A DNA stretch of 64,000 nt, taken from IMG/VR virus record IMGVR_UViG_3300025133_000026; one strand, given 5' to 3'. The notes beneath the pieces were generated by a model. The model did not search any database. It was not told where the DNA came from and saw only the letters and a list, made by a program, of their open reading frames with translations. Below are positions 4,062 to 55,940 of this stretch, piece by piece. The position numbers and the translations under genes were made by a program. This stretch comes from a virus. Positions within the stretch are counted from its first letter, which is position 1; every line of letters begins with the position of its first letter.

Positions 4062-4076
4062 TTTGATTATAGAATC

Positions 4077-10066: not shown

Positions 10067-10072
10067 AAGTGA

Positions 10073-37080: not shown

Positions 37081-40000
37081 TAGCCTTCATCTCCCAATCC
37101 TGTGATGGCCCATTTTTCCCATGTGCTTAAATCGTCACTATATGCATTGACGATATCGTGATTATATAGAGAGAAATCAATAAGCCTATTCATAAAACCT
37201 TCCTCTGCGTCGTCGACCCAAAGACGAAGCTTTCCCAACCATGAATCAAAAATGTTTTCAGGAATATCTTCAGGAATTCCAGCAAGCATGGGGATCCCCC
37301 CTTTTGCGAGAGGGATCACCATGCCAATTGTTTTATCTGTACTCTTTAAGATTTGTCTAAAACCACCGGTTAATTGTGCTCCACTAATAGGTGTTGGATG
37401 AGAGACAAAGTTTGCTGTATTTATAAAAAGATTACCTGCGGCGGCACTTACACCTGTTAAGACTTGCCCCGCAGTCCCCGAGAAAGTATTCGTAGCAAGT
37501 AATCCTGCACCAGCGATCACCCCTCCAACAACAACTCCTGCAGGACCTGTCGCTACACTAGCTACACCGACACCTGCCCACATCCCAGCGCCTCCGCTGA
37601 GCAAAGTTCCTCCAGTTTGAGCAAGGCTTTCGTTTAGTGTTGGGTTCCCAATAGCAGAAGTAAATTCTAATGTATTCCCGAAAAGAGAGCCGGCCGCTTT
37701 TAGAGCCGCCCATCCCATTGAATCTAACAATCCAGTCGACCCCATTTCATTAACAACAACGACAGCATCTGGAATAACAACAGAAATAAATCCTGTGTTT
37801 GGAGAAAAGAAGTGGGTAACTTCTTCAACTTCGACAGGACCTGCCATATCATTGTAGTTGTCCATAAGGAAAACAATATCGTAAGGTTTTAGTTCTGGAT
37901 TTCCCAATAAGGTAAGCTGCCCAGTATACATTTCTTTAAGACCTTCTTGAATCGCTTTCAAAGAATAGCGTTCGGCCATTGCTTGCCCATTGCAATTTTC
38001 AAAGTCCAGATCAGCTAAAAGAATATCTTCATCTGCCATGTAAGGATGATATTTATAAATAGCAACTTCAGACTCTGTCCTTCCTTTGCTTATCGATCTC
38101 CAAACAAATCCGCCGGCTTCTCCGGCGGCCACAAGGCCGATGTTCAGAGAGTTCGCTGATGGCCCGCCCTCACCGAAGGCTTCTTCCTCTCCTCCTTCCG
38201 TAGCTTTACTAACATCGTCTATAAAGTCTAGCGCGCGGCCACCCCAGGTTCTTGCGTTATACCTGACAGCAACACTGTTGTGCATATTATAGGAAGACGT
38301 ACTAATTTCATTAGATACAATATCGTGATAGCTTGTAACAAAATGATATTTGCGGAAAGGCTTAAAGCGTTGACGCAATCCTCTTAAATATAAAGTTAGT
38401 GAAGGAATAAGATTGGTTTCTATGCTCTTTCTTTGCGCTCCAGAGAGAGCAGAAGACCCCAATTGATCTTCTGCTAAATTGATATCTTCTCTTGCCTTGT
38501 TCATTGATTCAATAAAAGCTGGAGTCGCATCTTCGGCCCAATAGCGCTGAGAGGGGATACCAAAGAACATTGTCATTCTAGACCCATAAGGAACAGGAGA
38601 AGCGACCCACCCTGGGTGTCTGAAGGTCATCTCTTGAAAAACATCCCAAATAGTAGTGCTCTTCGGGTGATAAACAATTTGCCTATGGTCCATCCCTCCA
38701 CTAAAATCCCATAACCCATAATCAATATAAACGTCAGGATCAGGAGCATAAATATTATTGTCGGCAGGACTGTCTCTATAGCTGCGCCATCTCTTTAAAA
38801 GAAATTCCTTCAGTCTAAGCTCTCCTGCAGCATTAATTCCTTCTCCAATCCATCCCCGCGCTTGACCCATATTTGCAATTGCACTAGCCCCACTATCAAG
38901 AATTCCATCAATAAGAAATGTATCGGTAGTGTCTGTTAGATTCTGCTGAATTGCGCGACTAGAAGAAAGCAAAGAGTTGACTTTGTTGTCGTAAGTCTTC
39001 TTTGCCGTCATCCATTTTAGACTGTTTCGATAAGTCCTATCATTGTTATTAATTGATAGTTGTTCTCCCACTTGTGGCAAATAACCCCACTGCCATTTTC
39101 CAAAGTGCATAACCTCAGGAGAGCGAATCATTGAAGAAAGGAGATCTGTTGTGTTTAGGTATGCTGTCGCAAAGCTAAGAGTTGCGTTAGCCTCTACTGG
39201 GCCATCAACAGGAAACTCTTCTCCAGAGATTCCCTTCTTCATTTGAACTAGTTCGGTTGCATATGATTGACAAACAATTGTCACAATATCGGTATTGTTT
39301 GACCAGTGTACTTCAACTACCCTGCCATTAAAAACAGTTGACAGAAAGTCGGGGTTGTTTGAATATCCCAATCGTAATTGAACATTCATTCCTTCTCGAA
39401 GAATGATTGAGTTGAATACATCTTCTTCTGCCGACCCTTCTTTTGCTCGAGATCGAGATGCACTCATTTTCTCTGATTTTTCTGTTGGATTGGCTAGATC
39501 TGTGTTCTTTCCTAACACATAGTCTAGATCAGTAATAGCTCCTTGAAGTGTTCCGTCAAGAACACCAGAAACATTCTGAAGCTCTACTACACACAAGTCT
39601 GCAGGTATTTTCCTTGATCTTGTTAATGAAATTGACCGAACTGCATTGTATCCATAGAAGTCATCAAGAGCTGACCAGCTTTCTTCTCCAGAGTCTTCTT
39701 CGATAAAATAGAGTTTAAATGTAGGGAAGGCTCTTTTTAACAAGTATTTTCGGCTTTCAAAGTCTTGCATAGAGTGATATGCAATTTCTTTTAAAGCATC
39801 AATATCAAATTTGTGATCAAGAAGGGGGTCTTTTTCAAAGACTGTCTCTTGTGCAAGGATATGACTTACTCCACTAAATTTACTATTGAAGTGTTTTTCT
39901 ACATTGTCCACTTCTTTTCTAAGAGATTCGTAGCTAGCAGTTCCTCCACTCTTTCTTTTGATAGTTTCTGAGCCGTCAAAATGCTTTCCTATCTTAAACT

Positions 40001-43000
40001 CTTCTCTAAAGTTTTCAGATTCGAAAGTTCCATCTTGTAAAGCATCCATCGAGGCCTTGTTGTTCCTCAGAATTTGGAGAATCTGTTTCTTCAATTTTGG
40101 ATCAGCACTATCAAATCCTTCAATCCCTGCATTGTCTGCATAATTGTAAAAGTAGAAATCAGGGTCTGTAAAAGTACTACTTCCAAAGTATGGATGGTCT
40201 GGCAGGTTAAGATCAGGATAACAAGGAGACCTTTTTCTTGAGGTAGCAGCAGAAGTAAAAATATCCTGAAAGTCAGAGTGTAGCCTTGCTTTTGGGTCTT
40301 GCAAAAAAGCTTGTTGGAGAACGCCAGCAATCAATTCTCTTATCAAGGCTATTAGTTCTAGTTCTTTTGCTTTTTTTGCTCCTGGGCTTAAGGGAGCCAC
40401 TATCTGCTCAGCATCAACACTACCAAGAAGACCTGTTCCAGCAACAGCAGTTCCACCACCCAGCAAAGCGCCCAACCCCGCGGCTGCTGCTCCTGCCGCA
40501 CTCAAGCCAGCACCTATACCTCCAAGAATTCCTGCAACGAATGCATTGGAAGAATCATCTTCTTTGAATTTATGTGCGGTTCCCAATGTAGCAATTAGTC
40601 TATTTCCTAATGTAGACCAAGTTCTATTTCCAAATTCACTGAGAAAGTCTTCTTCTCCGTTTATATAAGAGAATCCGGCCACAGTGGGAACGTTTATTAA
40701 CCGTTTCCCAGTAGTCTGTTCATAGGAAGGAAGGACATATTTCTCTATACCAAAGAAAGGAGCTCTTTCAATGATTTCTTGTCTAGTCAATCCATGATAA
40801 TGACCATCAGAAAGAACAAGGTTTGCAAAGATACAAAGCTGAGCAATATCTTGTAGCTTTCCTGCCAACCATTCATCACCTACATTGTCTACTGTATATT
40901 TGAAATTCCAAGTTTTCCAATACTCTTCTTTCCTTTCTTCTCCTTTCTCATAAATGGTTCCTGTGTCTTTCTCACTTGGAAGTGCACCACGGTAACCTTT
41001 TTGTTCTAAGTGCCCATGTTCGACAGCATGTTTAGAAGGAGCTGTATCGGGTCGATCTTGAAATACCGAACGAAGAACTTTTCGTTCATAAGGCATCCCA
41101 ACCTTGTCTTTTCTGGTATATCTTTGAGTAACTGTCCAGCCCTTTTTCTTTAAGCTAGAAATCTTAGAGGCTTCGCGCACTGAGTCTAAGAACTCTGAAT
41201 CTTCTGGTGGTGCAGGCGGAGGCGCATGTCTTATATTTGTGTCTCCACTAGCGATAAAAGCTCTTTGTTGTTGTCCCCCAATATCTTTATTTAATTGAGA
41301 AGAAGAAGGGTCCATCCTTACCATTTGTCTTGTCGAGTCTTGTCGACTTTCAACAATCTCTACTTTGATGTATTTCTCAAAGAGTCTTTCAACAATCTCT
41401 GCCATCGTTTCTTCAGTGGAGTAACCAGTACTTTGTAGAGATTCTCCAGAGAAGGGTTCCGAGGCTGTTAGTTCAAGATCAAAAGTATAAGATCCTGGAT
41501 GTTGAGGGATCGTATCACTACGCAAATTGTTAACTGCAAATTGGCGAGCCCCAATGAGACGAGAGCCGAAACAGGAAACATTGACTGTCCAAGAATCTGG
41601 GATTGCTCGAAAAAGTCTTGCATTCTTCTGTAACATTCCAACCATATCAACAAGGGCTTTGGCTCCAATGGGAATATCATCTGTCTGTTTAGAGAGAGCT
41701 GCAAAGTTTAAAAAGAGCTTGCCCTCAAAACTTCCGACAAGTTGAGACGTAGGTGTTTCATGACTAAGAAGAGGGAGTGTAGCTATTTGATTTCCAAGTG
41801 TTGCTGACATTGCTGTGCAAATAAAAGCACTGTTGGATCCGAACTCACCTTCTGTTAAAGGAACGATTAATTTCCAATCTCTGTAAATTACATTTGCCAC
41901 ATGTGGGGATTTGTAAAGGTGCCAGCCTTGGGCTGCCAGATCTTTCATCTGTTCAGAGGTCTGTTCTGACAATTTTTCAAAGTCTACTTCAGAGAAAGTC
42001 GGAACAGGACTACTTCCAGAAGAGAAAACAATGGCAGAATCACTTTCTTCAATACTCAGAGTCAAGGGATCTATTGGATCTCCATTCCTTCTAACTTCCC
42101 AGTGAAGGTGAGGTCCTGTACTGAGTCCAGTACTTCCAACGGTTCCAATAAGCTCTCCCTTCACAACTGTACTTCCAAGACCTGTCTCAATAGAATTGAG
42201 ATGCATAAAAGAGTGTTTGTATCCACCAGCTTCTTGGAGATAAACGGTTAAACCATTTGCACTGTTATCTTCAGTTCGGAGTCGAACAATCTTCCCTTCA
42301 ATAGGAGCCACAACAGGTGTTCCAGTAGGTGCTCCGATGTCAACGCCGTTGTGTGGCCTATAGACTTTATCTACAGGATGAAATCGATTAGGATTAAAGA
42401 GAGAAGTAACAGTTCCTTTTGTTGGAAACAAATAGCTCCCAGAGTTAAAATTAGAGTTTGTTTCTGCCAAGACCTCTTCACTTACCGTAGCATTCTTTAC
42501 TAAGGCAGCTACATCGGGACCACTAGGAAGAATTCCGAACTCTTTCCATTCTAGAACAACACTTTTTCCTTTTGTATAGGCAGAAGTATTGTATCTCATC
42601 ACTTGCGCTTCTGGGGTAGCCATAAAGATTGACATTGCCCAAGCGGCTCCAAAGTGGTCTTCCAGCCCTTTTGCTTGAAGATAATTAATATAGTAACGGT
42701 AAATATCAGACTCTTCTGGTGTGACATCTGTGGTTGTCGGCTCTCTAAAAGGAGAAGGATTTAATCCCGTAACATCGACTCTTTGTTCATCCAATTGGAG
42801 ATAACGGGGCTGACTAATCGTTTCAAGACTAGAGAAGGGTGTCTCTTCTTGGAAGATATTCTCTTCTTCTCCTACTTCAATATTATAAATAGTTCTCTTT
42901 TTTCCATCAAGGCTTTCAATATTCCAATCCTTTCTCCACCTTAGGTTTGGAGCATAAGGGGCATAATTGAAGTAGGAGAGAGTTAGCCCGACCTCAAAAG

Positions 43001-43346
43001 AGTGAGGAAGTTCAGGCACAGAAACAACATTCATGTCTCTGGCAGTGAAAGCCAAAGATACATGCCTTGGCATTGAACTACCAATTGCATTTTTAAGATA
43101 TCTATTCTTTACATACCAAATAGGAGTATTTTGAAATTCTAAGACAAGACGATGCAATTGATCTAGATTACCTGGAGTGAATACGAGTCTCAATCCAACA
43201 CTGATGTCTCCCTGCCCTGTAGGGATCTTCGCAGATTGTGAACTACGAAGAGTCTTCCATTCGAAATGTTGATTTGAATGGTTGACAGTTATATCCGTAG
43301 GCGGAATATCAAAAACAAGATCATTTATTTGAAAGTAATTATTCAT
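37080..43346 (-). CDS. Giant baseplate hub-like protein with internal M23 peptidoglycan endopeptidase (2088 aa)
   Basis: M23 at ~42065-42420 (HNGVD, GSTGLSTGPHLHWEV); hub-like segment LREGMNVQLRLGYS...VFNGRVVEV; two Gly/Ala-rich hydrophobic stretches. Confidence 0.8.
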   Translation of the reverse strand: MNNYFQINDLVFDIPPTDITVNHSNQHFEWKTLRSSQSAKIPTGQGDISVGLRLVFTPGNLDQLHRLVLEFQNTPIWYVKNRYLKNAIGSSMPRHVSLAFTARDMNVVSVPELPHSFEVGLTLSYFNYAPYAPNLRWRKDWNIESLDGKKRTIYNIEVGEEENIFQEETPFSSLETISQPRYLQLDEQRVDVTGLNPSPFREPTTTDVTPEESDIYRYYINYLQAKGLEDHFGAAWAMSIFMATPEAQVMRYNTSAYTKGKSVVLEWKEFGILPSGPDVAALVKNATVSEEVLAETNSNFNSGSYLFPTKGTVTSLFNPNRFHPVDKVYRPHNGVDIGAPTGTPVVAPIEGKIVRLRTEDNSANGLTVYLQEAGGYKHSFMHLNSIETGLGSTVVKGELIGTVGSTGLSTGPHLHWEVRRNGDPIDPLTLSIEESDSAIVFSSGSSPVPTFSEVDFEKLSEQTSEQMKDLAAQGWHLYKSPHVANVIYRDWKLIVPLTEGEFGSNSAFICTAMSATLGNQIATLPLLSHETPTSQLVGSFEGKLFLNFAALSKQTDDIPIGAKALVDMVGMLQKNARLFRAIPDSWTVNVSCFGSRLIGARQFAVNNLRSDTIPQHPGSYTFDLELTASEPFSGESLQSTGYSTEETMAEIVERLFEKYIKVEIVESRQDSTRQMVRMDPSSSQLNKDIGGQQQRAFIASGDTNIRHAPPPAPPEDSEFLDSVREASKISSLKKKGWTVTQRYTRKDKVGMPYERKVLRSVFQDRPDTAPSKHAVEHGHLEQKGYRGALPSEKDTGTIYEKGEERKEEYWKTWNFKYTVDNVGDEWLAGKLQDIAQLCIFANLVLSDGHYHGLTRQEIIERAPFFGIEKYVLPSYEQTTGKRLINVPTVAGFSYINGEEDFLSEFGNRTWSTLGNRLIATLGTAHKFKEDDSSNAFVAGILGGIGAGLSAAGAAAAGLGALLGGGTAVAGTGLLGSVDAEQIVAPLSPGAKKAKELELIALIRELIAGVLQQAFLQDPKARLHSDFQDIFTSAATSRKRSPCYPDLNLPDHPYFGSSTFTDPDFYFYNYADNAGIEGFDSADPKLKKQILQILRNNKASMDALQDGTFESENFREEFKIGKHFDGSETIKRKSGGTASYESLRKEVDNVEKHFNSKFSGVSHILAQETVFEKDPLLDHKFDIDALKEIAYHSMQDFESRKYLLKRAFPTFKLYFIEEDSGEESWSALDDFYGYNAVRSISLTRSRKIPADLCVVELQNVSGVLDGTLQGAITDLDYVLGKNTDLANPTEKSEKMSASRSRAKEGSAEEDVFNSIILREGMNVQLRLGYSNNPDFLSTVFNGRVVEVHWSNNTDIVTIVCQSYATELVQMKKGISGEEFPVDGPVEANATLSFATAYLNTTDLLSSMIRSPEVMHFGKWQWGYLPQVGEQLSINNNDRTYRNSLKWMTAKKTYDNKVNSLLSSSRAIQQNLTDTTDTFLIDGILDSGASAIANMGQARGWIGEGINAAGELRLKEFLLKRWRSYRDSPADNNIYAPDPDVYIDYGLWDFSGGMDHRQIVYHPKSTTIWDVFQEMTFRHPGWVASPVPYGSRMTMFFGIPSQRYWAEDATPAFIESMNKAREDINLAEDQLGSSALSGAQRKSIETNLIPSLTLYLRGLRQRFKPFRKYHFVTSYHDIVSNEISTSSYNMHNSVAVRYNARTWGGRALDFIDDVSKATEGGEEEAFGEGGPSANSLNIGLVAAGEAGGFVWRSISKGRTESEVAIYKYHPYMADEDILLADLDFENCNGQAMAERYSLKAIQEGLKEMYTGQLTLLGNPELKPYDIVFLMDNYNDMAGPVEVEEVTHFFSPNTGFISVVIPDAVVVVNEMGSTGLLDSMGWAALKAAGSLFGNTLEFTSAIGNPTLNESLAQTGGTLLSGGAGMWAGVGVASVATGPAGVVVGGVIAGAGLLATNTFSGTAGQVLTGVSAAAGNLFINTANFVSHPTPISGAQLTGGFRQILKSTDKTIGMVIPLAKGGIPMLAGIPEDIPENIFDSWLGKLRLWVDDAEEGFMNRLIDFSLYNHDIVNAYSDDLSTWEKWAITGLGDEG

Positions 43347-46300
43347 ATTTACGACGCTCTCTATTTAGCTCTGCTGGAGATAAGACTCTTCTCCTGTCCT
43401 CTATTCTACTATTAATACTTGTTTTATTGAGTCGTTCTCTTAAGGCTTGATGAAAACCTCCCATATTTATTCTGCTCATGTCATCTCGAATACTCATCCT
43501 TGTTGATGTGCCCTGTCTAGACAAGGACATGCGTGGTTGATGGAATTGACTATCTGGTAAAAAGTCTGTGCTTCCAACGGGCTGATGAATAGACATTTGA
43601 GGCTCTTGTGAGCGCTGCGCATTTAGTAATTCTCCAGAGCGAATTGCATTAAGAATACGGGGGTCTACCTTCTCACCCTCTGCAAGCAAAGGCTGGGGTG
43701 AATACCCTGGATCGCCCAGCAACCCAAAGGCCAAGGCTGAACCTGCGAGACCTAATAGAATAGGGGCTCCGAAGAATCTGTCTCCAAGTTTACCCGCTGC
43801 TCGTCGCGCTCTGTCTCCAAGCTCTGTATTGATTGCTTCTATTGTTTCTCTCGATGCACCAGCAGCTTCAGCTTCTCCAAGCATAGCAGCAAGTACTGCA
43901 GAACCAGGGTCTCCGCTTTTCTTGGCAAGTTCTCGGGCTTTTATTAAGCCTTCAACGCTAAGATCTCTGCCGTGCTGCTCTCTCTTTCTTCTGTATACAT
44001 CAAAGACTTTTCGATCATCCGAACCGAGATAATCCCCGAAAGTATTAACAAGCTTATGAAAATAGTCATCATCTACTTTCAAGGTTCTTGTCTCTCCATC
44101 GCCCACCGAATAATCAATTCCCGTCGCAAGTTCTTCAGGAATTAATTCCTGAGATAGGTGAGAGATAAATTTAAGAATATCAGGATCTCGTCCACCACCT
44201 GAAGACAATGCTGATGCCAAGTCTCGTGAAAGAGTCGGAGCTCTCTCTAGCTTCTTAGCCTTGAGGGTACCTGTTTCCTCTGCGACGGCAAGAAGGTTTA
44301 CAGTTCGAGAAATAAAGTCTTGATCTTTAGACTGGGTGAGAACCGCATACTTGACTTCTTCAAGGGCTCTTGAAAGTGGCCCAATATCTTTACTGTATCT
44401 TTGCTTATAGGCTGCCCGACTAAGACCACCCATTGCTGCTTGGCTATTGACTTGTTCCATCTGTTTCTTTAGAACTTTGGAAAGAATTTGTTGCTCTGCA
44501 GCTCGTGCTTCAAACTGTTGTTCGAACTTTGCCCATCCGGCTTTGTTTTCTGTCATTATCGAAATTGCATTTTTCTCTTGCATTATTTTGATAGCAACCA
44601 TATCTTTGTCAAAGTCAAGGGTCATACCAGGAGCCATACCGAGATCTGCCTCAATTGTGCCTCCTAGAAGTTGTTTGGCGGACTCATTGAGAATATTAAT
44701 ATTCTTCATTCTGTTCTGTATCACAACACGACTAGAAGAATCTGCTGTTTCCAGACCTTGATGAACTCGTAAATAAACAGGCTGGGTTGATTGTTCTCCG
44801 ACTGTTGGGAAACGCCAAATCATTCCAGCCATTGATGATTCACCCTTCATAAAGGCTTTTTTCGAAACAGCATCAAGCTTGGCTCCTCTTGTTAAGTTTC
44901 GTGCTTGGTTTTGAGAAAGAAAGACTGTTCTCTTTAACTCACCAGGGTCTACTTGATCTAAAGTTCCCAAAAGATCTTCTCCAATTGTTCTTCCGGCAGC
45001 AGCCCATTCGTCACTACCTTTCCCTGCCTTAAGAACTAAATCTAGATCAGAAACACCAGCCGCCTGAACAAAAGAAGAGGCTGGCCCAAGAGAGTTGACG
45101 GTTATTCTTTTGTCTGCAGCTAAAGAATACTTTGCCATACTCGTCTTCAGTTTCTTGGCAAAATAGCGTGCTTCTTCTGGAGACTTCGCATCTCTTAATC
45201 CTGAAACATTTCTTGTTATCTCTTTTGTTATATGTCTAAAGTCAACTCGACCACTATTCTTTTGTCTATAATATCCAACACCAGTTTCAAGAGACTCTTC
45301 TCCAGGAAGCATAAAACGTTCAGGAACAATATCAGCAACAGCATCGACTTGAGAGGGAGAAACTTTTCTTAGATCTAAAAGGAAGTCTTTTTTAGGATAA
45401 AGGCGCTCCTTGTCAAGCAAGAGAGAGTCGGCATACCCCATGACATTCATAGACTCACTTGGAAGCTTACCTCCATGGAGACTACTGAGAGATCTCCTTA
45501 GAGTAGCTGCCATTCTCACAGCACCTCTGTTTTCTCCAGAGATTGCAGACATAAGGTCTTGAATCATCGCAGAAGAGAGGTCTTTGTCTCCCAGTTTCCA
45601 GCCGGCAGTCATCAAACCATCAAGACTGCGAGCTTCGAGTGTTGCAAATCGACCTTTGTTAAGCGTCGGGTCATCAGCAGGGACTAAAGCACCCCAAGAG
45701 ATGACCCCACTAGCTTGCTCAATACTTGTCATTACTTGCTTTCTTTCTGCAACAGAAAGACCAACATCTTTTAGAAGACCGCCGAACTTTTTAGCTCCAA
45801 GAACTTTAGCCGCACCCTTAAAGGCTGTGCCTGTCTGGAGCGCACTTCCGAAAACACCAATTTCTCGTGCTTCTAAAAGAGCAGCCCTCATGAAGTCTTC
45901 AAGTGTGCCAGCAGCCCCTTTGGCCATCTTGCCTTGAAGATAATCCAGAGGAGATACCCCTAGAATTCCCTTCATTTTTTGTCTTCTGTCGGACTCAGCC
46001 GAAAGTGTTGCTGATGCCCAGTACTTCAATGCACCTGCTACCTGTCTTTTAACACCGTAGGCACCTTGTTTTACAGATGTCGCGCTGGTGGTTACTGCCT
46101 CTACTCCTTGTGATAAAAGTTTATAATCAGCGCTATCTGCATCTGCTGGATTAATGCGGCCGAGAATCGTACCCATCATTTTGTCATCAATAAATTTAAG
46201 AGTAGTTTTCCAGCCACCACTAATACCTTGTTGTAGTTTGGTTCCTTCTCCAAGACCAAAGATACGTTGCATCTGGAGAACTCTGTTTCCAGCCTCGTCT

Positions 46301-48801
46301 GTTGTTACTCCAATAAGCCTGTCTTGCATTCTTCGTCCTCGAACGGAAAAGATCGGCTTTCCAGTCTCTGCATCAAGACCCAAGAAAACACCTTTTGGCA
46401 AATCCATATCAGGAAGACCTTGCTTTAGATAATCATCTACAAAAGGTGAAGAAACTCCAGCGCCAACAACTCTTTGAGTATGAGGCGAAGCAAACCGTAT
46501 TCCGTACCCACCTTTAGATGTTCTTGTTTTAAACTTCTCATGAAGATACATTTCACCCTCAAGCAAAGAAAGGTTCTTCTCAAGAGTCATCACTTTCTTA
46601 TCATCAATGACTTCAAAAGTTAATGCATGTGGGTTTAGGTAACCATATTTTCCGAGCAGCTCTTCTTCAAATTTGGCCCCAGGGTTTACTGGCATCCAAC
46701 GGTTAAAAGCCTTCAAAGGTCCGCCTCGCATCGCAGCGCCCTTGTTCTTATCTAATTTCCACCCACCGTTAATGTGCGGACTAATGCCTTGTCCTGTTTG
46801 TACTTCTGTAGGAAGTACAACTGATATCTCTCTGAAGCTTTGATAGGGTCGTGACAATACAAAAGGCTCCATCTCTGCTTGTAAAACCTTTCCACTTGGA
46901 CCAGCAAGAGCCTCTTCTGAAGGAAGTCCAGAATACCAATCATAAGCAAGACGATTTTGCTTGTTGGTCATGATAAACATACCTTCCGCTGTTTGCTCAG
47001 GACCCATCAAGTGCACATTTGGTGACCCACCAAGGCGGGCCACGATTTTGTCTTTATCTTTTGTATAAAGTTTATTGTTAACATCTTCATAGATTTCTCT
47101 AGACACAGCAAGATTAGACTGAAGAACATTCTGTAATTCTGCCCCACTTGTTGAGCCAGGAGTGATGTAGCGAGAGAATTTTGAAATTCTCTCCATTCCG
47201 GATCTTAGAATACTTCGTCGCTCCCAGGGTCGAGTCTGGGGAGAAAGAATTCTTCCGAAAATATCTCTTCCTGCTTCCCATAGAGCAGTGCGTCCAGACA
47301 CACTTTTTTCAGCACCCTCTATTCCAACCCTTGACATTGTATAAGCACTGCCATTAGAAGTTAAATAAGTACTCCCTGCATGTTTTCCTGGGAGGATCAT
47401 TTCAAAAGGTCGGTGCGTCCCTTCCATAAACAACCGAACACGGAAGTAATTGCCAGGGTCAGAAGTATGCAAAGCACCTTGACGAAACAGAGTATCAACT
47501 TCAAGAGAAGCTCCTGTGGGTAATTGGTCAAGGCCAAGTCGTCTTGCTACTAGTTTTCTTTCTATATCTGTAGTAGCGCGGGATGAGACACCAGTACCAC
47601 CGAATCCTTTGTTACTTGGAAGAGGAGTGCCTCCATTTTTCAAATTGTCATGAAGAGTTATCATTAGCTCTGCATCTAATGCAGCATACTGCATTTGCTG
47701 AGCAGATAAAGGCCTGAGGCTCCAGTCTGACTGTTGGTAAAGTTTTTCTACCCTAACCCCCATCTCTCTCTCAACCAAAGCGGCAAGACTATGGCTATAA
47801 CCTTTTGTCTTGCCATATTTTTGCTGTGAGGCATCAAAAGTATCAAACACATTGTCAAGCTGTATACCAGCTTTTTCAAGAACTTCTTTTTCAAACTTAG
47901 AATAGTGGATTACTTTTGTTGCTGGCCCTTCCAAGATAGGCTTCAATACTTCTAAAGAAGAAAGTGTTTTCGCATCAATAATCCAAGTTCCTTCATTTGT
48001 CGCTAACTGAACGGTAGATATTTGTTTTGTTCCAAAAGTCTCAACATCGAGACCAAAAACCTCTACACCTTGAACACTTTTAACAAACTCTCCAACAGCT
48101 TGGGCACCAGAGAGAAACTTGACAGGCTTCGTCGTTTTTGCTGTTGGCAGAACGGGGGCTGGTAATGAGTAATCTCTTCGAGCCGCCCCCATGCCTTGAG
48201 AAAGTCCAGTAAACGAGATGTGTTCAGCTGAAACCCCGCCTCTTTTCAAGCTCTTTAGTTTCCCAAAAACACTACGATGACTGATTCCTTGGATTCTTAA
48301 AAACTCTCCTATTTCATTAGCACTAGCACCAGAGAGATATCTGGCAGCATCAGCCATTGTATCCATCTTTCTGTTGTGGGTAGGGTCAAGCATTGTTGAG
48401 AATGCAGCCAAGCGAAGAAGAGGAAGTTCTTTTGCTGAGGTTTTCTTAGAAAAGTCTATAACTTCTTTTGCTAAACTAGCATCGTGCTGTGCGCTGCTGT
48501 GCCGTTGAAAACGCCCGGCGGTCTCAGCGACTAAACTCCCCAAGTCACGGAAGCCTCGTGATTTACGAGAAGGTAAGGTTAAGCTTGGTCGCGATGGAGT
48601 AGGAGAAGGCAGATTCCCCTCTTTCGTTGTTGTAAAAAGACTGTCCGTCCATGCTCCAATATCTTTAAGAGCGTCAACAACCTCGTCTTGATTTCGAGAA
48701 ATAGTCCATGCTGCGGCACCCAATGCAGGAGCCATTCCAACTATAGTGCCCATGCTGGAGAAAATGCCGCCTAAGCCTGATTGTTCTAAATCATTGCTCA
48801 T
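43339..48801 (-). CDS. Putative virion two-barrel (DPBB) RNA polymerase with inserted DEDDy 3'-5' exonuclease, in the tape-measure position (1820 aa)
   Basis: Exonuclease: LDVET, HYSKFE, SDWSLRPLS, YAALD. Beta-like: LGEGTKLQQGISGGWKTT. Beta-prime-like: WRFPT...MTLDFDKDMVAI. Hydrophobic segments at both termini. Confidence 0.7.
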   Translation of the reverse strand: MSNDLEQSGLGGIFSSMGTIVGMAPALGAAAWTISRNQDEVVDALKDIGAWTDSLFTTTKEGNLPSPTPSRPSLTLPSRKSRGFRDLGSLVAETAGRFQRHSSAQHDASLAKEVIDFSKKTSAKELPLLRLAAFSTMLDPTHNRKMDTMADAARYLSGASANEIGEFLRIQGISHRSVFGKLKSLKRGGVSAEHISFTGLSQGMGAARRDYSLPAPVLPTAKTTKPVKFLSGAQAVGEFVKSVQGVEVFGLDVETFGTKQISTVQLATNEGTWIIDAKTLSSLEVLKPILEGPATKVIHYSKFEKEVLEKAGIQLDNVFDTFDASQQKYGKTKGYSHSLAALVEREMGVRVEKLYQQSDWSLRPLSAQQMQYAALDAELMITLHDNLKNGGTPLPSNKGFGGTGVSSRATTDIERKLVARRLGLDQLPTGASLEVDTLFRQGALHTSDPGNYFRVRLFMEGTHRPFEMILPGKHAGSTYLTSNGSAYTMSRVGIEGAEKSVSGRTALWEAGRDIFGRILSPQTRPWERRSILRSGMERISKFSRYITPGSTSGAELQNVLQSNLAVSREIYEDVNNKLYTKDKDKIVARLGGSPNVHLMGPEQTAEGMFIMTNKQNRLAYDWYSGLPSEEALAGPSGKVLQAEMEPFVLSRPYQSFREISVVLPTEVQTGQGISPHINGGWKLDKNKGAAMRGGPLKAFNRWMPVNPGAKFEEELLGKYGYLNPHALTFEVIDDKKVMTLEKNLSLLEGEMYLHEKFKTRTSKGGYGIRFASPHTQRVVGAGVSSPFVDDYLKQGLPDMDLPKGVFLGLDAETGKPIFSVRGRRMQDRLIGVTTDEAGNRVLQMQRIFGLGEGTKLQQGISGGWKTTLKFIDDKMMGTILGRINPADADSADYKLLSQGVEAVTTSATSVKQGAYGVKRQVAGALKYWASATLSAESDRRQKMKGILGVSPLDYLQGKMAKGAAGTLEDFMRAALLEAREIGVFGSALQTGTAFKGAAKVLGAKKFGGLLKDVGLSVAERKQVMTSIEQASGVISWGALVPADDPTLNKGRFATLEARSLDGLMTAGWKLGDKDLSSAMIQDLMSAISGENRGAVRMAATLRRSLSSLHGGKLPSESMNVMGYADSLLLDKERLYPKKDFLLDLRKVSPSQVDAVADIVPERFMLPGEESLETGVGYYRQKNSGRVDFRHITKEITRNVSGLRDAKSPEEARYFAKKLKTSMAKYSLAADKRITVNSLGPASSFVQAAGVSDLDLVLKAGKGSDEWAAAGRTIGEDLLGTLDQVDPGELKRTVFLSQNQARNLTRGAKLDAVSKKAFMKGESSMAGMIWRFPTVGEQSTQPVYLRVHQGLETADSSSRVVIQNRMKNINILNESAKQLLGGTIEADLGMAPGMTLDFDKDMVAIKIMQEKNAISIMTENKAGWAKFEQQFEARAAEQQILSKVLKKQMEQVNSQAAMGGLSRAAYKQRYSKDIGPLSRALEEVKYAVLTQSKDQDFISRTVNLLAVAEETGTLKAKKLERAPTLSRDLASALSSGGGRDPDILKFISHLSQELIPEELATGIDYSVGDGETRTLKVDDDYFHKLVNTFGDYLGSDDRKVFDVYRRKREQHGRDLSVEGLIKARELAKKSGDPGSAVLAAMLGEAEAAGASRETIEAINTELGDRARRAAGKLGDRFFGAPILLGLAGSALAFGLLGDPGYSPQPLLAEGEKVDPRILNAIRSGELLNAQRSQEPQMSIHQPVGSTDFLPDSQFHQPRMSLSRQGTSTRMSIRDDMSRINMGGFHQALRERLNKTSINSRIEDRRRVLSPAELNRERRKYE

Positions 48802-51800
48802 TTGAATCTATCCTCATATTTCTTTCTCATAGCAAAACGAGAGTCTTCTATATTGAGACGAACATCATTTCTACTTTGACTAGATCTTACATCAGAGACC
48901 TCAAGGTCATAGTCTATGATACCAAAGTCAGAGGCTGTCTGGTCGATTATCCTACGAACATCGTTTGAATTTTCTTTTGGAGACATCATTTCATCAACCA
49001 TCTCTTCATTGATGTATGGTTTTCTTGCAAGAAGCCTGACATGACTATCCCAGAAACCAAAATCATGAATATCCATACCTTCAGACATTGCATACTTTAA
49101 CTTAACATCCTCTAAGTCTACACCTGGATGAAAGCCCAGCCAAGAGCGGTCGGGAATGCCACCCTTTTCATCAAAATAAGCAATAACCTCAGCCGGGTCT
49201 GGTTGGTATGCGCTATAGGCTTCTTGTAGTCGTTCTAATGTTGCTGTGTCTCCAGAAAGTTCAGCATCCATGCGAGCCCATTGGGCTTGATAAATACGTC
49301 TATAAGATTCTGGAATCAACTGCAGAATTTCTTCTCTTTCGCTTAATGATCGCGCTGAAGAAAATGCATCAAAATATTTTCTTTGTACTGCAGGGAGGGC
49401 TGCACGGATAATATTCTGATCACCAAAAGCATCAACGCCAGTTACTGTATTGCTTTGTAAACGAATATAATCTTGCGCCTTAGAGCTGTCTCCTTCATTC
49501 AAAGCATTTTTTGCTAGGAGATTCCACTTTAAATACTCAAGTTTATCAAAATGTTCTTCAACATCTCTTACATCTTGCAGATAAGAAGGTGCACCGAATC
49601 CAAGAAGCCCCCTAAAAGAATTAAAGGCAGGACGAACCCAGTCACGAATTGGCTTGTCCCAGAAAGCTAATTGAGTACCATGCATATGATATTGTTCATA
49701 ATGCTCAACAGGGGTTTCTACCCCTGAGAGTAATTTACTGAATGGACGGAAGCCAAACGGGAACAGGTATTCGACTGGAGCAACAAGTTTTTTGAATGCA
49801 ACTGTCCATCCTCTTCCGGCGCCACTAAAAAAAGCTTTTGCTTTTGTTTGCTCATTCATATCAGTGACTTGACCAAAAAGCTTATTTCTTCTATTCTTTA
49901 ATCTTTGATCAATTCTATTCAGTTTAGCCAATGTAGCTTCGCTATAGATGCCAGCTTCAATTCTTCTATTGATTTGTGTTTCAACTGTTCTGAATTCAGA
50001 AGACCAATAGGCTACATCAGAAAGAATCTTGTATTTATGTTCAAGGGGATAGTCTTCTGGATTTAATCCTTCAAGCTCAGGGTGCAGGGCTGCATACCCA
50101 GGCCCAGGCATTCGCCCTTCTCCATATGGAATGTTATATGGATCTCCCGTTCTCAAATCCTTTGGCAGCCAAGAAGGCATCGCATTTGGAATCGGGTTGT
50201 ATTCTTTGATTTCAGAACCCTTTGCAGGGTAATATCGACGAATAGCTTCCGAGGCAAACAGAAGACCGCCTAGTTCCATATCCCAAAATTTCTTACTAAT
50301 GCTAGAAATCTGTTCTGCAGACTGGAGTCTTGTGTCTTGAGAGAATAATCTTGGATCTCCACCACTAGTTATTCCGACATAAGTCTGTTGTAAGAAACCA
50401 ACCAAACCTGCTTGTTCACTGCTACTGTACAAGAAATCAGAAAATCGATTCTTGGGAGAGAAAGGAGAAACAGGGACAGCAGCGCCCAGACCGCCTAGTT
50501 CTGGAATTGGCGGTGTCGATAAACTATCGGGCGGATGGAGCATTTCAAGTTCACCAGATTCGCTTACTTGGACCCACTCTCCAAGATGCATTAGCTTGGG
50601 TGGTTTTAGAACCCTACCCACAGTAGACGCCAGAATCTCTCCAACAAAAGGAACATCATTAAAAGCAGTTGCCGTAATTGGGTATGGTCTGCTTTCATAA
50701 TTGCGTCGCTCTAACTCATATGTAAAGTTCTTTAAAAAGAACTTTTGTAAAGGAGAAAGCTGGTCTTCTGTTACACCCCAAGCTGCTTTTTCAACAGCTC
50801 TTGACATCATTAATGGATACCAGTGAGGTTTGTGGTGGGTAATGTCAGCACCTTCATAAGGTGTTCCTCCAGCCTCCCAAAGCCTACCTCTTCTTACAGC
50901 AACTTGTTCGTCTCCGGAATAAAGTGCTTTTAATTCTTCTGGACTTTCTTTAGAAGCTAACTGACCTGTTGCAAGAGCCCATGCTCCTGCACCCGCTAAG
51001 AACCGAATAGCCCCGCCTCGCAATGGCAAATGTCGATTCTTCCACCAGATAGTGGATCTATTTAACTCTTCTAATAATTTTCCACCACCAGAAGTGAAGG
51101 CGGCCTTCGTTTGTCTCCACCCTTTACCAAGAAACCCGTCTCCTTGGTTGATATAATCTGCCCATCTTTCATCGATTGATTTTTGAAGTGCTATCCTTGG
51201 GTTCTCGCTAGAAAGACCATGAAGCATGTCTTGTTCTACACTATTCCAGGTTTCCTTCGCAGCATCGAGATAGCCTGTTAAAGTGGTTGGAGATCTGGTT
51301 CTCATTCGAGAAGCCCAGTCTCTCCATCGATCAAAATAACCGTGAACTGGTCGTGTTTCTGATACAGCCAATCCTGCTGATCGAATAGCACTCTCTCCTA
51401 CAAAGGTATTAAGCATTTTACGCCCACCAACACCAACAACAAGACCGGCCAACAAAGCAGTTTCCGGTTTTGAGGCAATTGGATGAAGGGAGTCTGCTAA
51501 TTCTCTGTGCCCTGCTCCGATAAAAGGCAATACACCACCAAAAGCATGAGACATATGTGATCTAAAAAGGTTTCCTCTGGTCAGGACTGTTCCAAGGCCC
51601 GGCAAAATACCTTCATCGAAAACAGGAGCAAGGGTAGCGAGCGCAGTACCTGCCCCAACCAAAGCAGAAACTCGAGGAGAAGCACTATAAGCACCTCTGG
51701 CAATAATACCAGTCATTGCACCATAAGCACCAGCAGAAACAAAATTTCCTAGTTCGTCGTTTCTTCGAAGCCAGTCAGCCGTAGATAAGCCTAATCCGAC

Positions 51801-52757
51801 AATACCAATCTTCGCGCCAAGCTTTGCATAACGCGCTTGCATGCTAAAGAAAGACCCCTCTTTAACAACCATATTAAAATTAGGAAGAAAAGAACCCAGG
51901 ATAGGAACTTCTTCTATAAACGTAGAAACTAATTGATTAAGACGTTGGCTAGCAAACGCACCAACTGTTCGTGCGTACTGAAGAGCAAAACCAGTCCTTG
52001 GGCTCAATTCCCCAAAATGAGGAAGAGAGACGCGGGAAGAAGCAGGAACAAACTCAGGCAGCTGGCGGACTCTTTGTCTTTCTAATATTGCTAAGTCTTC
52101 CGCTCGACTTAAATTGACCTCGGCTTGTGTCCTTGGAGCCCCAGAATATGCTGATCTCTCTGAGGTTAATTGTTGATGGAGGTCTTCGTCAACAAGAGAA
52201 AGATGTGCCGCAAAGAATCTATCGTAAGAGGAGTTTAGTGGATCTCCTCTTCTTAGAAGAAATATGTTGTCTGCTAAAGTTCGGCCGTTGAGGGTTAGCC
52301 TTCCACTAAATTCACCGGTTCTATGAAACTGCATAGCGGCATCACGAGCATGGAAGCCACGAGCAGCCAATTGGGTTTCAGACATACCGGTGACTTGACT
52401 AATATATCTTGCTGTATTTCTTCTATTATTTCCAAGGAAATTGGTAGCAATGTTTACGGTACCACCAACAATTTTTTCATGCTCAACAAACGGAGAGACA
52501 ATACCTGGTAGTCTGAGGGTAGGACCAAAGAAAGGAATGGCTTGTTCGAAGCCAGCAAGGCCTCTGTAGAGCCACGTAAAGCCCGTATCGCCCTGATAGG
52601 TCTTACGTCCTGCTGCCCAGAGAGCAGCGCCTCCTGCAGCCGTCCAGGCCCCAGTACGCGCAACTTGGCCCCAAGGACTGGAACCCCCATACACAGTGGG
52701 CTCAGATGACCAAGTAGGTCTCTGAGCCCTTTGTTGGTACTCTCTTGATACGGCCAT
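48798..52757 (-). CDS. Tape-measure-like / ejection protein with several hydrophobic segments (1319 aa)
   Basis: First large ORF after the chaperones; helical, Ala/Gly-rich with multiple TM-like stretches. Confidence 0.6.
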   Translation of the reverse strand: MAVSREYQQRAQRPTWSSEPTVYGGSSPWGQVARTGAWTAAGGAALWAAGRKTYQGDTGFTWLYRGLAGFEQAIPFFGPTLRLPGIVSPFVEHEKIVGGTVNIATNFLGNNRRNTARYISQVTGMSETQLAARGFHARDAAMQFHRTGEFSGRLTLNGRTLADNIFLLRRGDPLNSSYDRFFAAHLSLVDEDLHQQLTSERSAYSGAPRTQAEVNLSRAEDLAILERQRVRQLPEFVPASSRVSLPHFGELSPRTGFALQYARTVGAFASQRLNQLVSTFIEEVPILGSFLPNFNMVVKEGSFFSMQARYAKLGAKIGIVGLGLSTADWLRRNDELGNFVSAGAYGAMTGIIARGAYSASPRVSALVGAGTALATLAPVFDEGILPGLGTVLTRGNLFRSHMSHAFGGVLPFIGAGHRELADSLHPIASKPETALLAGLVVGVGGRKMLNTFVGESAIRSAGLAVSETRPVHGYFDRWRDWASRMRTRSPTTLTGYLDAAKETWNSVEQDMLHGLSSENPRIALQKSIDERWADYINQGDGFLGKGWRQTKAAFTSGGGKLLEELNRSTIWWKNRHLPLRGGAIRFLAGAGAWALATGQLASKESPEELKALYSGDEQVAVRRGRLWEAGGTPYEGADITHHKPHWYPLMMSRAVEKAAWGVTEDQLSPLQKFFLKNFTYELERRNYESRPYPITATAFNDVPFVGEILASTVGRVLKPPKLMHLGEWVQVSESGELEMLHPPDSLSTPPIPELGGLGAAVPVSPFSPKNRFSDFLYSSSEQAGLVGFLQQTYVGITSGGDPRLFSQDTRLQSAEQISSISKKFWDMELGGLLFASEAIRRYYPAKGSEIKEYNPIPNAMPSWLPKDLRTGDPYNIPYGEGRMPGPGYAALHPELEGLNPEDYPLEHKYKILSDVAYWSSEFRTVETQINRRIEAGIYSEATLAKLNRIDQRLKNRRNKLFGQVTDMNEQTKAKAFFSGAGRGWTVAFKKLVAPVEYLFPFGFRPFSKLLSGVETPVEHYEQYHMHGTQLAFWDKPIRDWVRPAFNSFRGLLGFGAPSYLQDVRDVEEHFDKLEYLKWNLLAKNALNEGDSSKAQDYIRLQSNTVTGVDAFGDQNIIRAALPAVQRKYFDAFSSARSLSEREEILQLIPESYRRIYQAQWARMDAELSGDTATLERLQEAYSAYQPDPAEVIAYFDEKGGIPDRSWLGFHPGVDLEDVKLKYAMSEGMDIHDFGFWDSHVRLLARKPYINEEMVDEMMSPKENSNDVRRIIDQTASDFGIIDYDLEVSDVRSSQSRNDVRLNIEDSRFAMRKKYEDRFK

Positions 52758-53359: not shown

Positions 53360-53365
53360 AGAATT

Positions 53366-53923: not shown

Positions 53924-53936
53924 TCTATAAAGCTCC

Positions 53937-54572: not shown

Positions 54573-54575
54573 CAG

Positions 54576-55265: not shown

Positions 55266-55270
55266 ATGAT

Positions 55271-55927: not shown

Positions 55928-55940
55928 TATCTCTCCTTAA

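What the first reader, a model, noticed from the sequence alone, without database searches (positions are those of the whole stretch)
43339..48801. Single-chain two-barrel RNA polymerase hidden in the tape-measure position of a myovirus tail operon
Seen: the 1820-aa ORF contains LGEGTKLQQGISGGWKTT (46201-46250). About 540 codons later it has ELKRTVFLSQNQARNL...WRFPT (44803-44817)...MTLDFDKDMVAIKI (DFDKD at 44602-44616). Known: the cellular beta subunit barrel carries two lysines in GDK-x4-GxK. The beta-prime barrel carries R-x-P followed by the Mg-binding DxDxD (NADFDGD). Single-chain virion versions exist: crAss-like phi14:2 gp66 (DFDID) and the tail-tape-fused virion RNAP gp96 of Thermus phage P23-45. 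Inference: both barrels lie in one chain, in beta then beta-prime order, with all three Asp, the Arg and both Lys retained. The gene sits between the chaperones and the hub and is coupled by ATGA and ATGAATAA overlaps. It is therefore probably a packaged, injected RNA polymerase for early transcription, with an unusual DFDKD variant, in a contractile-tailed phage. A plain homology annotation would likely call it only a 3'-5' exonuclease or hypothetical protein.
Basis: partly seen in the sequence, partly recalled or inferred. Interest (0 to 1): 0.93.

Follow-up and report, generated by a model that had tools for sequence, protein, structure and literature searches.

The report
Tail-module RNA polymerase of a myovirus
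A 1820-residue gene among the contractile-tail genes of an uncultured marine phage very probably encodes a highly diverged one-chain relative of the cell's RNA polymerase, fused to an exonuclease; the phage would carry it in the particle to start its own transcription, something shown so far only for a few unrelated phages.

Summary
ORF 43339-48801(-) is intact, 1820 aa, and carries the stated motifs and start/stop overlaps. Ordinary annotation sees only a DEDDy 3'-5' exonuclease (aa 234-389).

Exhaustive HMMER and contig scans gave nine distant homologues (19-30% identity), all in the same tail-module slot.
- The most conserved 15-residue window of the whole family is the DxDxD loop. R1330, P1332, D1396, D1398 and D1400 are invariant.
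- K855 is invariant. K865 is K in eight and R in one. An acidic residue lies 29 aa before K855, the same spacing as in QDE-1.
- These are the eight residues that define two-barrel RNA polymerases.

The module is collinear with Bacillus phage 0305phi8-36. The flanking giants match gp145 and hub gp147, so this gene fills the slot of gp146, a putative tape measure found in virions. Acinetobacter phage ME3 gp36 is a probable cultured relative.

Packaging and activity are inferred. This scan has noted similar tail-module polymerases on other DNA. Confidence 0.7; new variant of a known kind.

The parts
43339..48801 (-). Whole gene: 1820-aa exonuclease plus two-barrel-polymerase-like protein (P0001)
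   Evidence: Open frame. The identical gene lies on several marine metagenome contigs.
48709..48765 (-). N-terminal Gly/Ala-rich hydrophobic segment, aa 13-31
   Evidence: Hydropathy scan. A similar segment lies at the N-terminus of the upstream 1319-aa protein.
47635..48102 (-). DEDDy 3'-5' exonuclease domain, aa 234-389
   Evidence: PF01612 E 4e-27. Matches to NrnC/diDNase, Rrp6 and Pol I exonuclease. D252, E254, Y372 and D376 are kept; E304 stands where the third Asp is expected. The domain is absent from the seven other family members scanned.
45982..46404 (-). Compact conserved domain aa 800-940: candidate beta-like barrel
   Evidence: Nearly constant length (132-144 aa) in all homologues. 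L807, G808, G814, K855 and K865 are invariant in the domain alignment. The fold was not confirmed.
46324..46326 (-). D826, an acidic column (E in the other members) 29 aa before K855: candidate counterpart of Rpb2-D837 / QDE-1 D709
   Evidence: Alignment. The QDE-1 spacing D709-R738 is taken from PMC2919709. Inference.
46201..46254 (-). Basic loop LGEGTKLQQGISGGWKTT, with K855 and K865
   Evidence: K855 is invariant in 9 of 9. K865 is K in 8 and R in one. An acidic residue lies 3 aa before K855 in all. The pattern resembles GDKxxxRHGxKG of E. coli beta.
44497..44949 (-). Beta'-like double-psi barrel, aa ~1285-1435
44803..44817 (-). WRFPT: R1330 and P1332, counterparts of Rpb1 R446/P448
   Evidence: Invariant in 10 of 10, together with S1338. 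The pattern RxPxxGxxS also occurs in phi14:2 gp66 (YRIPNQGQSS) and gp96 (FRNPVMGHGG).
44602..44616 (-). DFDKD metal-binding loop, D1396/D1398/D1400
   Evidence: The three Asp are invariant in 10 of 10. The loop is the most conserved window of the family.
44242..44394 (-). Conserved helices aa 1470-1520 (S1477, A1486, E1509, T1512, K1514; EETGTLKAKK): candidate bridge-helix region
   Evidence: Invariant columns in predicted helices. The functional assignment is my inference only.
43705..43779 (-). Conserved hydrophobic (transmembrane-like) segment, aa 1675-1699
   Evidence: Hydropathy. Among the three most conserved windows of the family.
43342..43419 (-). Conserved C-terminal tail SRIEDRRRVLSP...RRKYE
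   Evidence: Second most conserved window of the family. A like motif (NIEDSR...RKKYE) ends the upstream 1319-aa protein.
48798..52757 (-). Upstream 1319-aa giant protein, homologue of 0305phi8-36 gp145 (a virion protein by mass spectrometry)
   Evidence: BLASTP E 1e-17, four segments. Annotation.
37080..43346 (-). Downstream 2088-aa protein with M23 peptidase, homologue of 0305phi8-36 baseplate hub gp147
   Evidence: Pfam M23. BLASTP E 9e-20.
52757..57830 (-). Tail sheath (55941-57830), tube (55271-55927), tube paralogue (54576-55265), gp142-like (53937-54572), chaperone-like (53366-53923) and a 200-aa ORF
   Evidence: PHROGs. BLASTP to 0305phi8-36 ORF140, 141, 142 and 144.

Best explanation
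P0001 is a new, very diverged single-chain two-barrel RNA polymerase encoded in the tail module of a roughly 178-kb marine contractile-tailed phage.

Proposed anatomy:
- A beta-like module (aa ~800-940) supplies D826, K855 and K865.
- A long, mostly helical connector follows.
- A beta'-like double-psi barrel (aa ~1285-1435) supplies R1330, P1332 and the Mg-binding D1396/D1398/D1400.
- Conserved helices, a hydrophobic segment and a conserved C-terminal tail come last.
- In this phage alone, a DEDDy 3'-5' exonuclease is fused in front.

Proposed mechanism: the gene fills the slot between the tube/chaperone genes and the baseplate hub. In 0305phi8-36 that slot holds a virion protein annotated as a putative tape measure. 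The protein is therefore most likely built into the tail lumen or virion, leaves with the DNA, and transcribes the first phage genes independently of the host polymerase, as P23-45 gp96 does.

Shown here: the motifs, their conservation, the beta'-barrel-like predicted fold, and the synteny. Inferred: the beta-like barrel fold, barrel contact, RNA synthesis, packaging and injection.
For: 1. Family and conservation.
- An exhaustive HMMER search found 7 homologues, and contig scans added 2 more.
- R1330, P1332, S1338, G1392, D1396, D1398 and D1400 are invariant in 10 of 10. K855 is invariant. K865 is K in 8 and R in one.
- The DxDxD loop is the top conservation window. The K..K and RxP windows are also in the top ten.

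2. These residues are the eight invariants that define two-barrel RNAPs (PMC2919709). The acidic-to-basic spacing of 29 aa equals that of QDE-1.

3. Fold.
- Most of the weak Foldseek PDB hits are beta' chains.
- Four of the 10 nearest ESM-Atlas clusters are RNAP beta'/PF00623.

4. The local sequence parallels known virion RNAPs: WRFPTVGEQST...DFDKDMVAI against gp66 YRIPNQGQSS...DFDIDKMYV and beta' NRAPTLHRLG...DFDGDQMAV.

5. Synteny.
- All homologues lie between a gp145-like giant and an M23/SLT hub giant, followed by baseplate genes.
- The module is collinear with 0305phi8-36, where gp145 and gp146 were detected in virions by mass spectrometry.

6. The complete 189.6-kb relative has one copy of this family. 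It has no PF00623 match and no sigma70_r2 match.

7. ME3 gp36 sits in the same slot.
- It carries SEESLKFF..GSK, SREPAQGTMSSQ and GGDHDQDQ in the same order.
- Its second half is the best-probability BFVD match (probability 0.96, E 1.3e-3).
Against: - No sequence method links the family to any RNAP. Pfam found nothing at E up to 10. A PDB profile search found nothing. hhalign against gp96, RpoB and RpoC found nothing.
- Both AlphaFold models are poor (mean pLDDT 49.8 and 47.4).
- The fourth acidic invariant is Glu, not Asp, in the other members.
- The K-K spacing varies (6 or 10, against 8 in cells and 5 in QDE-1).
- The R-to-DxDxD spacing is 66 aa, against 35-45 in known enzymes.
- No repeated promoter-like word was found upstream of genes in the complete relative (a crude test).
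- The slot partner in 0305phi8-36 (gp146) has no DxDxD, so the slot does not by itself imply a polymerase.
Confidence: 0.7

Rival explanations
1. It is a structural tail-lumen, tape-measure or ejection protein. Its barrel with DxDxD binds metal for a purpose other than nucleotide polymerisation, for example folding, membrane or peptidoglycan action, or another hydrolytic activity. The resemblance to RNA polymerase would be a relic.
For: - It occupies the slot of the putative tape measure gp146.
- It has long helical stretches, a conserved hydrophobic segment and a conserved C-terminal tail, like many tape measures.
- The beta-like barrel was not confirmed.
- A myovirus needs a tape measure, and no other gene in the module is clearly one.
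Against: - Conservation peaks exactly on the catalytic loop. All eight polymerase-defining positions are kept over 19-30% identity, and apparently in ME3 gp36 too. A relic would not keep them.
- Being a tape measure and being a polymerase are not exclusive, as P23-45 gp96 shows.
Confidence: 0.13
2. It is a genuine two-barrel nucleotide polymerase with a different job. It could be an RNA-dependent or primer-making polymerase, or a PolD-like DNA polymerase working with the fused exonuclease. Alternatively it could be a non-packaged (non-virion) RNA polymerase.
For: - The two-barrel superfamily includes RNA-dependent polymerases such as QDE-1 and YonO relatives.
- DEDDy exonucleases are typical partners of DNA polymerases. 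The nearest phage hit to the exonuclease lies in a DNA polymerase gene.
- No packaging data exist.
Against: - The exonuclease is present only in this one family member, so it is not part of the core function.
- The strict tail-module position, with overlapping start and stop codons, argues for a virion component.
- The structural matches are to DNA-dependent RNAP largest subunits.
Confidence: 0.13
3. The motifs are chance matches in a large protein, and the structural hits are noise from a poor model.
For: - One DxDxD per 1820 aa is expected about 0.3 times by chance.
- All fold scores are sub-threshold.
Against: - The three Asp, R-x-P and both Lys are invariant across ten sequences.
- Motif enrichment among invariant columns has p = 8e-5.
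- Every low-rmsd match to aa 1285-1435 is an RNAP largest subunit.
Confidence: 0.04

Closest known systems
Thermus phage P23-45 gp96, the tape-measure-fused virion two-barrel RNA polymerase (Chaban et al. 2024, PMC10770324)
   Same: - One chain with a DFDxD loop and an upstream R-x-P.
- Encoded in the tape-measure slot of the tail module.
- A peptidase-bearing tail giant is associated with it.
- Proposed delivery through the tail to transcribe the first genes.
   Different: - gp96 belongs to a siphovirus and is one 5002-aa fusion with the tape. Here the phage is contractile-tailed and the polymerase-like gene is a separate 1820-aa protein between two other giants.
- No detectable sequence similarity.
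- The loop is DFDKD instead of DFDGD.
- An exonuclease is fused in front.
- No second (gp64-like) copy was found in the complete relative.
crAss-like phage phi14:2 gp66 virion RNA polymerase (Drobysheva et al., bioRxiv 10.1101/2020.03.07.982082)
   Same: - A giant one-chain virion protein, beta-like then beta'-like, joined by a connector.
- A non-Gly residue at position 4 of the loop (DFDID against DFDKD).
- Nearly the same RxPxxGxxS pattern.
- Encoded in a block of giant virion genes.
   Different: - gp66 belongs to a podovirus-like crAss phage.
- The connector is about 140 aa, against about 400 aa here.
- No profile-level similarity is detectable.
YonO-type single-chain RNAP of Bacillus phage 0305phi8-36, the nearest cultured relative by tail genes
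   Same: A one-chain two-barrel enzyme in a phage of the same tail lineage.
   Different: It is encoded outside the tail module. The tail-slot protein gp146 of that phage has no DxDxD. Homology of P0001 to YonO was not tested.
Cellular RNAP beta' and beta (E. coli RpoC and RpoB; Rpb1 and Rpb2)
   Same: - The eight active-site invariants.
- A predicted beta'-barrel fold.
- Pattern likeness to NRAPTLH...NADFDGD and GDKxxxRHGxKG.
   Different: - One chain rather than two.
- No match to the Pfam RNAP domains.
- A 30-aa longer insert inside the barrel.
- None of the other conserved RNAP modules was detected.

Membership tests
Two-barrel RNA polymerase superfamily (eight invariants of Ruprich-Robert & Thuriaux 2010, PMC2919709) | DxDxD Mg-binding loop (Rpb1 D481/483/485) | tested here: met
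   DFDKD at 1396-1400. The three Asp are invariant in 10 of 10, and the loop is the top conservation window.
Two-barrel RNA polymerase superfamily | R-x-P upstream of the loop in the same barrel (Rpb1 R446, P448) | tested here: met
   R1330 and P1332 are invariant in 10 of 10 and lie 66 aa before D1396.
Two-barrel RNA polymerase superfamily | Two basic residues in the other barrel (Rpb2 K979, K987; QDE-1 R738, K743) | tested here: met
   K855 is invariant in 9 of 9. K865 is K in 8 and R in one. Spacing is 10 or 6 aa.
Two-barrel RNA polymerase superfamily | Fourth acidic residue in the beta-like barrel (Rpb2 D837; QDE-1 D709) | tested here: inconclusive
   D826 here and Glu in the other members, 29 aa before K855 as in QDE-1. 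The assignment rests on alignment by eye.
Two-barrel RNA polymerase superfamily | Beta'-like double-psi barrel fold around the loop | tested here: met
Two-barrel RNA polymerase superfamily | Beta-like double-psi barrel fold | tested here: inconclusive
Two-barrel RNA polymerase superfamily | The two barrels face each other, with the lysines next to the Asp triad | not testable with these tools
Two-barrel RNA polymerase superfamily | Mg- and template-dependent RNA synthesis | not testable with these tools
   Needs biochemistry.
Cellular-type RNAP subunits (Pfam RNA_pol_Rpb1_2 PF00623, RNA_pol_Rpb2_6 PF00562) | Match to the Pfam models | tested here: not met
   No RNAP family at E up to 10 in any of 8 members. 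No PF00623 match in the complete relative. hhalign against RpoB and RpoC found nothing.
P23-45 gp96 family | Sequence or profile homology to gp96 | tested here: not met
   hhalign against gp96 aa 327-1200 gave probability below 1%.
phi14:2 gp66 family | Sequence or profile homology to gp66 | tested here: inconclusive
   A sub-profile of the family finds only the DFDxD loop of gp66, with an insignificant score. Full gp66-family profiles were not available.
Tail tape measure protein | Gene between tail chaperones and baseplate hub | tested here: met
   Collinear with 0305phi8-36 ORF140-147. P0001 fills the ORF146 slot.
Tail tape measure protein | Long extended helical protein whose length sets the tail length | tested here: inconclusive
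   About half of aa 430-1629 is predicted helical, but in bundles and with low confidence. The tail length is unknown. The gp145-like neighbour could be the tape instead.
DEDDy 3'-5' exonuclease (PF01612) | Pfam match above cut-off, and the acidic residues plus Tyr | tested here: met
   95.5 bits against a cut-off of 23.6. D252, E254, Y372 and D376 are kept; the third Asp is Glu304.

The most novel reading that the evidence does not exclude
This is the founding member of an undescribed family of one-chain two-barrel RNA polymerases. The family occupies the tape-measure slot of 0305phi8-36-like large contractile-tailed phages and includes the cultured Acinetobacter phage ME3 (gp36). Tail-delivered RNA polymerases would then be a widespread strategy rather than a peculiarity of one thermophilic siphovirus lineage. 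In this phage the enzyme is also fused to a DEDDy exonuclease. That would be an RNA polymerase with a built-in 3'-5' exonuclease, for proofreading, primer trimming or attack on host nucleic acid.
Probability: 0.5. Interest if true: 0.85.

Novelty: new variant of a known kind. Interest (0 to 1): 0.78.

Why it matters
Virion-delivered two-barrel RNA polymerases are proven only for crAss-like phages, phiKZ/AR9-type jumbo phages and P23-45-like Thermus siphoviruses. A sequence-unrelated family in the tail module of large myoviruses would have several consequences.
- Injecting a cellular-type polymerase through the tail would appear to have arisen, or been kept, far more widely than known.
- It would add a deep branch for studies of RNA polymerase origins.
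- It would explain how these phages, which have no recognisable polymerase or sigma factor, might start transcription.
- It would give an immediately testable case in a cultured phage (ME3 gp36).

The exonuclease fusion is unusual for any RNA polymerase. The case also shows that routine annotation ('3'-5' exonuclease' or 'hypothetical protein') hides such enzymes.

Tried and rejected
- **Word-indexed protein searches.** Three searches (whole core, alignment, C-terminal region) returned only the query itself.
- **ESM Atlas feature search.** No usable hit.
- **tblastn against cultured phages.** P0001 hit only the exonuclease part of Pseudanabaena phage DNA polymerases. P0003 and P0007 hit nothing.
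- **Profile searches.** A profile against PDB sequences found nothing relevant. hhalign of the family against single sequences of gp96, RpoC, RpoB, and 0305phi8-36 ORF145 and ORF146 gave no signal.
- **Family sub-HMMs against RpoC, gp96 and gp66.** They land on the DFDxD loops but with insignificant scores. Against ME3 gp36 the hits are collinear but within the shuffle range.
- **Whole-record search of ME3, 0305phi8-36 and MTATph1 with the family profile.** Nothing rang.
- **Further contig scans.** The viral-contig and genome-contig scans with the closer alignment found no more members.
- **Paralogy of the three giants.** BLASTP shows none.
- **T7-type RNAP family search in the complete relative.** Nothing was found, but the control also failed, so this says nothing.
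- **Promoter search.** Exact 8-12-mers upstream of genes in the 189.6-kb relative gave only tRNA T-arm words. The test is crude, so degenerate promoters are not excluded.
- **Complex prediction of the two candidate barrel domains.** No verdict: score 0.00, and the partner fold was uncertain.
- **Foldseek of the beta-like domain model.** Only unrelated weak hits.
- **The 23 published RNAP family alignments, as held in the P23-45 supplement.** They contain no DFDKD or DYDAD. No paper in the library uses DFDKD in this sense.
Full report
**1. The observation**

The minus-strand ORF 43339-48801 is open and encodes 1820 aa.
- The quoted peptides are present. LGEGTKLQQGISGGWKTT is aa 850-867 (window 46201-46254). 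WRFPT is aa 1329-1333 (44803-44817). DFDKD is aa 1396-1400 (44602-44616) and is the only DxDxD in the protein.
- The start overlaps the upstream stop as ATGA. The stop overlaps the downstream start as ATGAATAA.
- Pfam sees only a DNA_pol_A_exo1 domain (aa 234-389, E 4e-27). PHROGs sees nothing. PDB sequence matches are all to DEDDy exonucleases.

**2. Context**

The window is a phage structural region. It holds a major capsid protein, sheath, two tube paralogues, small chaperone-like genes, three giants (1319, 1820 and 2088 aa), small baseplate genes and a Baseplate-J-like wedge.
- No whole genome is held. The same gene lies on marine metagenome contigs, the longest 178 kb.
- By sheath similarity, the nearest cultured phages are Bacillus phage 0305phi8-36, Acinetobacter phage ME3 and Moorella phage MTATph1.
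- BLASTP shows the module is collinear with 0305phi8-36. The tube matches ORF140, the tube paralogue ORF141, the 211-aa protein ORF142 and the 185-aa protein ORF144 (weakly). The 1319-aa giant matches ORF145 (E 1e-17). The 2088-aa M23 giant matches hub ORF147 (E 9e-20).
- P0001 has no match. It fills the slot of ORF146, annotated 'hypothetical tape measure protein' and detected in virions by mass spectrometry.

**3. Relatives and conservation**

Word-indexed searches found nothing.
- An exhaustive HMMER search of 1.84 billion representatives found seven homologues, with E from 2e-62 to 6e-6 and 26-31% identity.
- Contig scans added a 1768-aa protein on a complete 189.6-kb IMG/VR genome and a 1680-aa fragment.
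- Every homologue whose neighbours could be read lies in the same place: after a 1300-1500-aa giant, and before a ~2000-2200-aa giant with M23 or SLT followed by baseplate genes.

In the 10-sequence alignment (19-30% identity to P0001):
- Invariant columns include R1330, P1332, S1338, G1392, D1396, D1398 and D1400. K855 is invariant where covered.
- In a domain alignment, both K855 and K865 are invariant in 8 sequences. The ninth has R.
- The most conserved 15-residue window of the whole protein is LGMAPGMTLDFDKDM. The K..K loop and the RxP segment are also in the top ten.
- Eight of 32 invariant columns fall in the 48 motif columns (p = 8e-5).

**4. Comparison with the defining residues**

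Ruprich-Robert and Thuriaux list eight residues shared by all two-barrel polymerases: Rpb1 R446, P448 and the three Asp; and Rpb2 D837, K979 and K987 (QDE-1 D709, R738, K743, R962, P964, D1007/1009/1011).
- The family keeps seven of them outright.
- For the eighth it has an acidic column: D826 here and Glu elsewhere, 29 aa before K855. That is the QDE-1 spacing.
- The local sequence reads like known enzymes. WRFPTVGEQSTQP...DFDKDMVAIKI compares with beta' NRAPTLHRLGIQA...DFDGDQMAVHV, gp66 YRIPNQGQSS...DFDIDKMYVML and gp96 FRNPVMGHGG...DFDGDTLVVLP. GEGTKLQQGISGGWKTTLKF compares with beta GDKMAGRHGNKGVISKI.
- These likenesses are by eye. Profile methods give nothing. That matches the published statement that RNAP families share little beyond the DxDxD region.

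**5. Fold**

AlphaFold2 on aa 430-1629 with the 8-row alignment gave a poor model (mean pLDDT 49.8), though the C-terminal half reaches 60-80.
- Foldseek against the PDB gave no significant hit, but most of the top weak hits are bacterial or plastid beta' chains.
- The second look gave the same for Pol II, Pol III and E. coli beta' 362-499, with rmsd 3.1-3.5 Å over 82-104 aa.
- Four of the ten nearest ESM-Atlas clusters are beta'/PF00623 families.
- All these scores are below the tool's safe levels, so I rate the beta'-like barrel as moderately supported.

The candidate beta-like domain (aa 640-960, clean domain alignment) folded poorly. Mean pLDDT was 47, with only aa 773-848 at 66-84.
- An attempt to score the packing of the two domains gave no verdict.

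**6. A cultured relative**

ME3 gp36 (1603 aa, 'hypothetical protein') lies in the same slot, between a gp145-like protein and the hub.
- It carries SEESLKFFSVGSK (about aa 620-640), SREPAQGTMSSQ and GGDHDQDQAAV (aa 1217), in the same order and at similar distances.
- HMM scores are not significant.
- Even so, the second half of an ME3 protein of matching size is the highest-probability BFVD match to the model (probability 0.96, E 1.3e-3, 747 columns).
- In contrast, 0305phi8-36 gp145 and gp146 and the Moorella phage giants have no DxDxD. 0305phi8-36 is reported to encode a YonO-like one-chain RNAP elsewhere.

**7. Other features**

- The exonuclease keeps D252, E254, Y372 and D376, with Glu304 at the third acidic site. 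It is absent from the other members scanned.
- A hydrophobic segment (aa 1675-1699) and the C-terminal tail are among the most conserved parts of the family.
- The tail motif recurs at the end of the upstream giant. This suggests a common docking or processing signal.
- The complete relative has a single copy of the family, no PF00623 match and no sigma70_r2 match.
- No exact repeated promoter word was found in that relative.

**8. Verdict**

The best reading is a new, sequence-isolated family of one-chain two-barrel RNA polymerases in the tape-measure slot of 0305phi8-36-like large myoviruses, here fused to a DEDDy exonuclease (confidence 0.7).
- It works like P23-45 gp96 and crAss gp66. It is not a member of their families by any sequence test.
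- Packaging, injection and catalysis are inferred.
- Notes of this scan report similar tail-module polymerases, one of them with an exonuclease, on other DNA. I did not test those, and they are not counted as evidence.

Noticed in passing
window 1975-11790 (- strand): A run of sugar-nucleotide and glycosylation genes sits inside the phage structural region. It contains a GDP-mannose-4,6-dehydratase-like epimerase, a DegT aminotransferase, two hexapeptide acyltransferases, a GFO/IDH/MocA oxidoreductase and four or five glycosyltransferases. It could glycosylate the virion or alter the host surface.
   Followed up: partly
window 43342-43419 and 48801-48880 (- strand): The 1319-aa and 1820-aa giants end with a similar motif..NIEDSRFAMRKKYEDRFK against ..SRIEDRRRVLSPAELNRERRKYE. 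In the P0001 family this tail is the second most conserved window. It may be a shared docking, packaging or processing signal.
   Followed up: partly
L019:10173-14984 (Acinetobacter phage vB_AbaM_ME3, ME3_36): This unannotated 1603-aa protein lies in the same tail slot. It carries E..K..K, RxPxxGxxSxQ and DHDQD in the same order. It is the best-probability viral structure match to the model. It is likely a cultured member of the family.
   Followed up: partly
L018 (Bacillus phage 0305phi8-36 ORF145-147): The positional counterpart gp146 (2537 aa, virion protein, 'hypothetical tape measure') has no DxDxD. That phage is reported to have a YonO-like RNAP elsewhere. The distribution may be complementary: the polymerase is either in the tail slot or elsewhere in the genome.
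   Followed up: partly
window 54576-55927 (- strand): The two tube paralogues hit PHROG 9206, which is labelled 'major head protein'. They are homologous to the tail tube (ORF140) and tube paralogue (ORF141) of 0305phi8-36, so the PHROG label looks wrong for them.
   Followed up: yes
L015:15824-16120: In one related contig an Endonuclease VII gene is inserted among the small baseplate genes downstream of the hub.
   Followed up: no
L021-L030 (G001, the 189.6-kb complete relative): The only words repeated upstream of genes were tRNA T-arm sequences (GGTTCGAATCC), so the relative carries several tRNA genes. It has one long + strand structural block (14.6-74 kb) and long - strand blocks elsewhere.
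   Followed up: no
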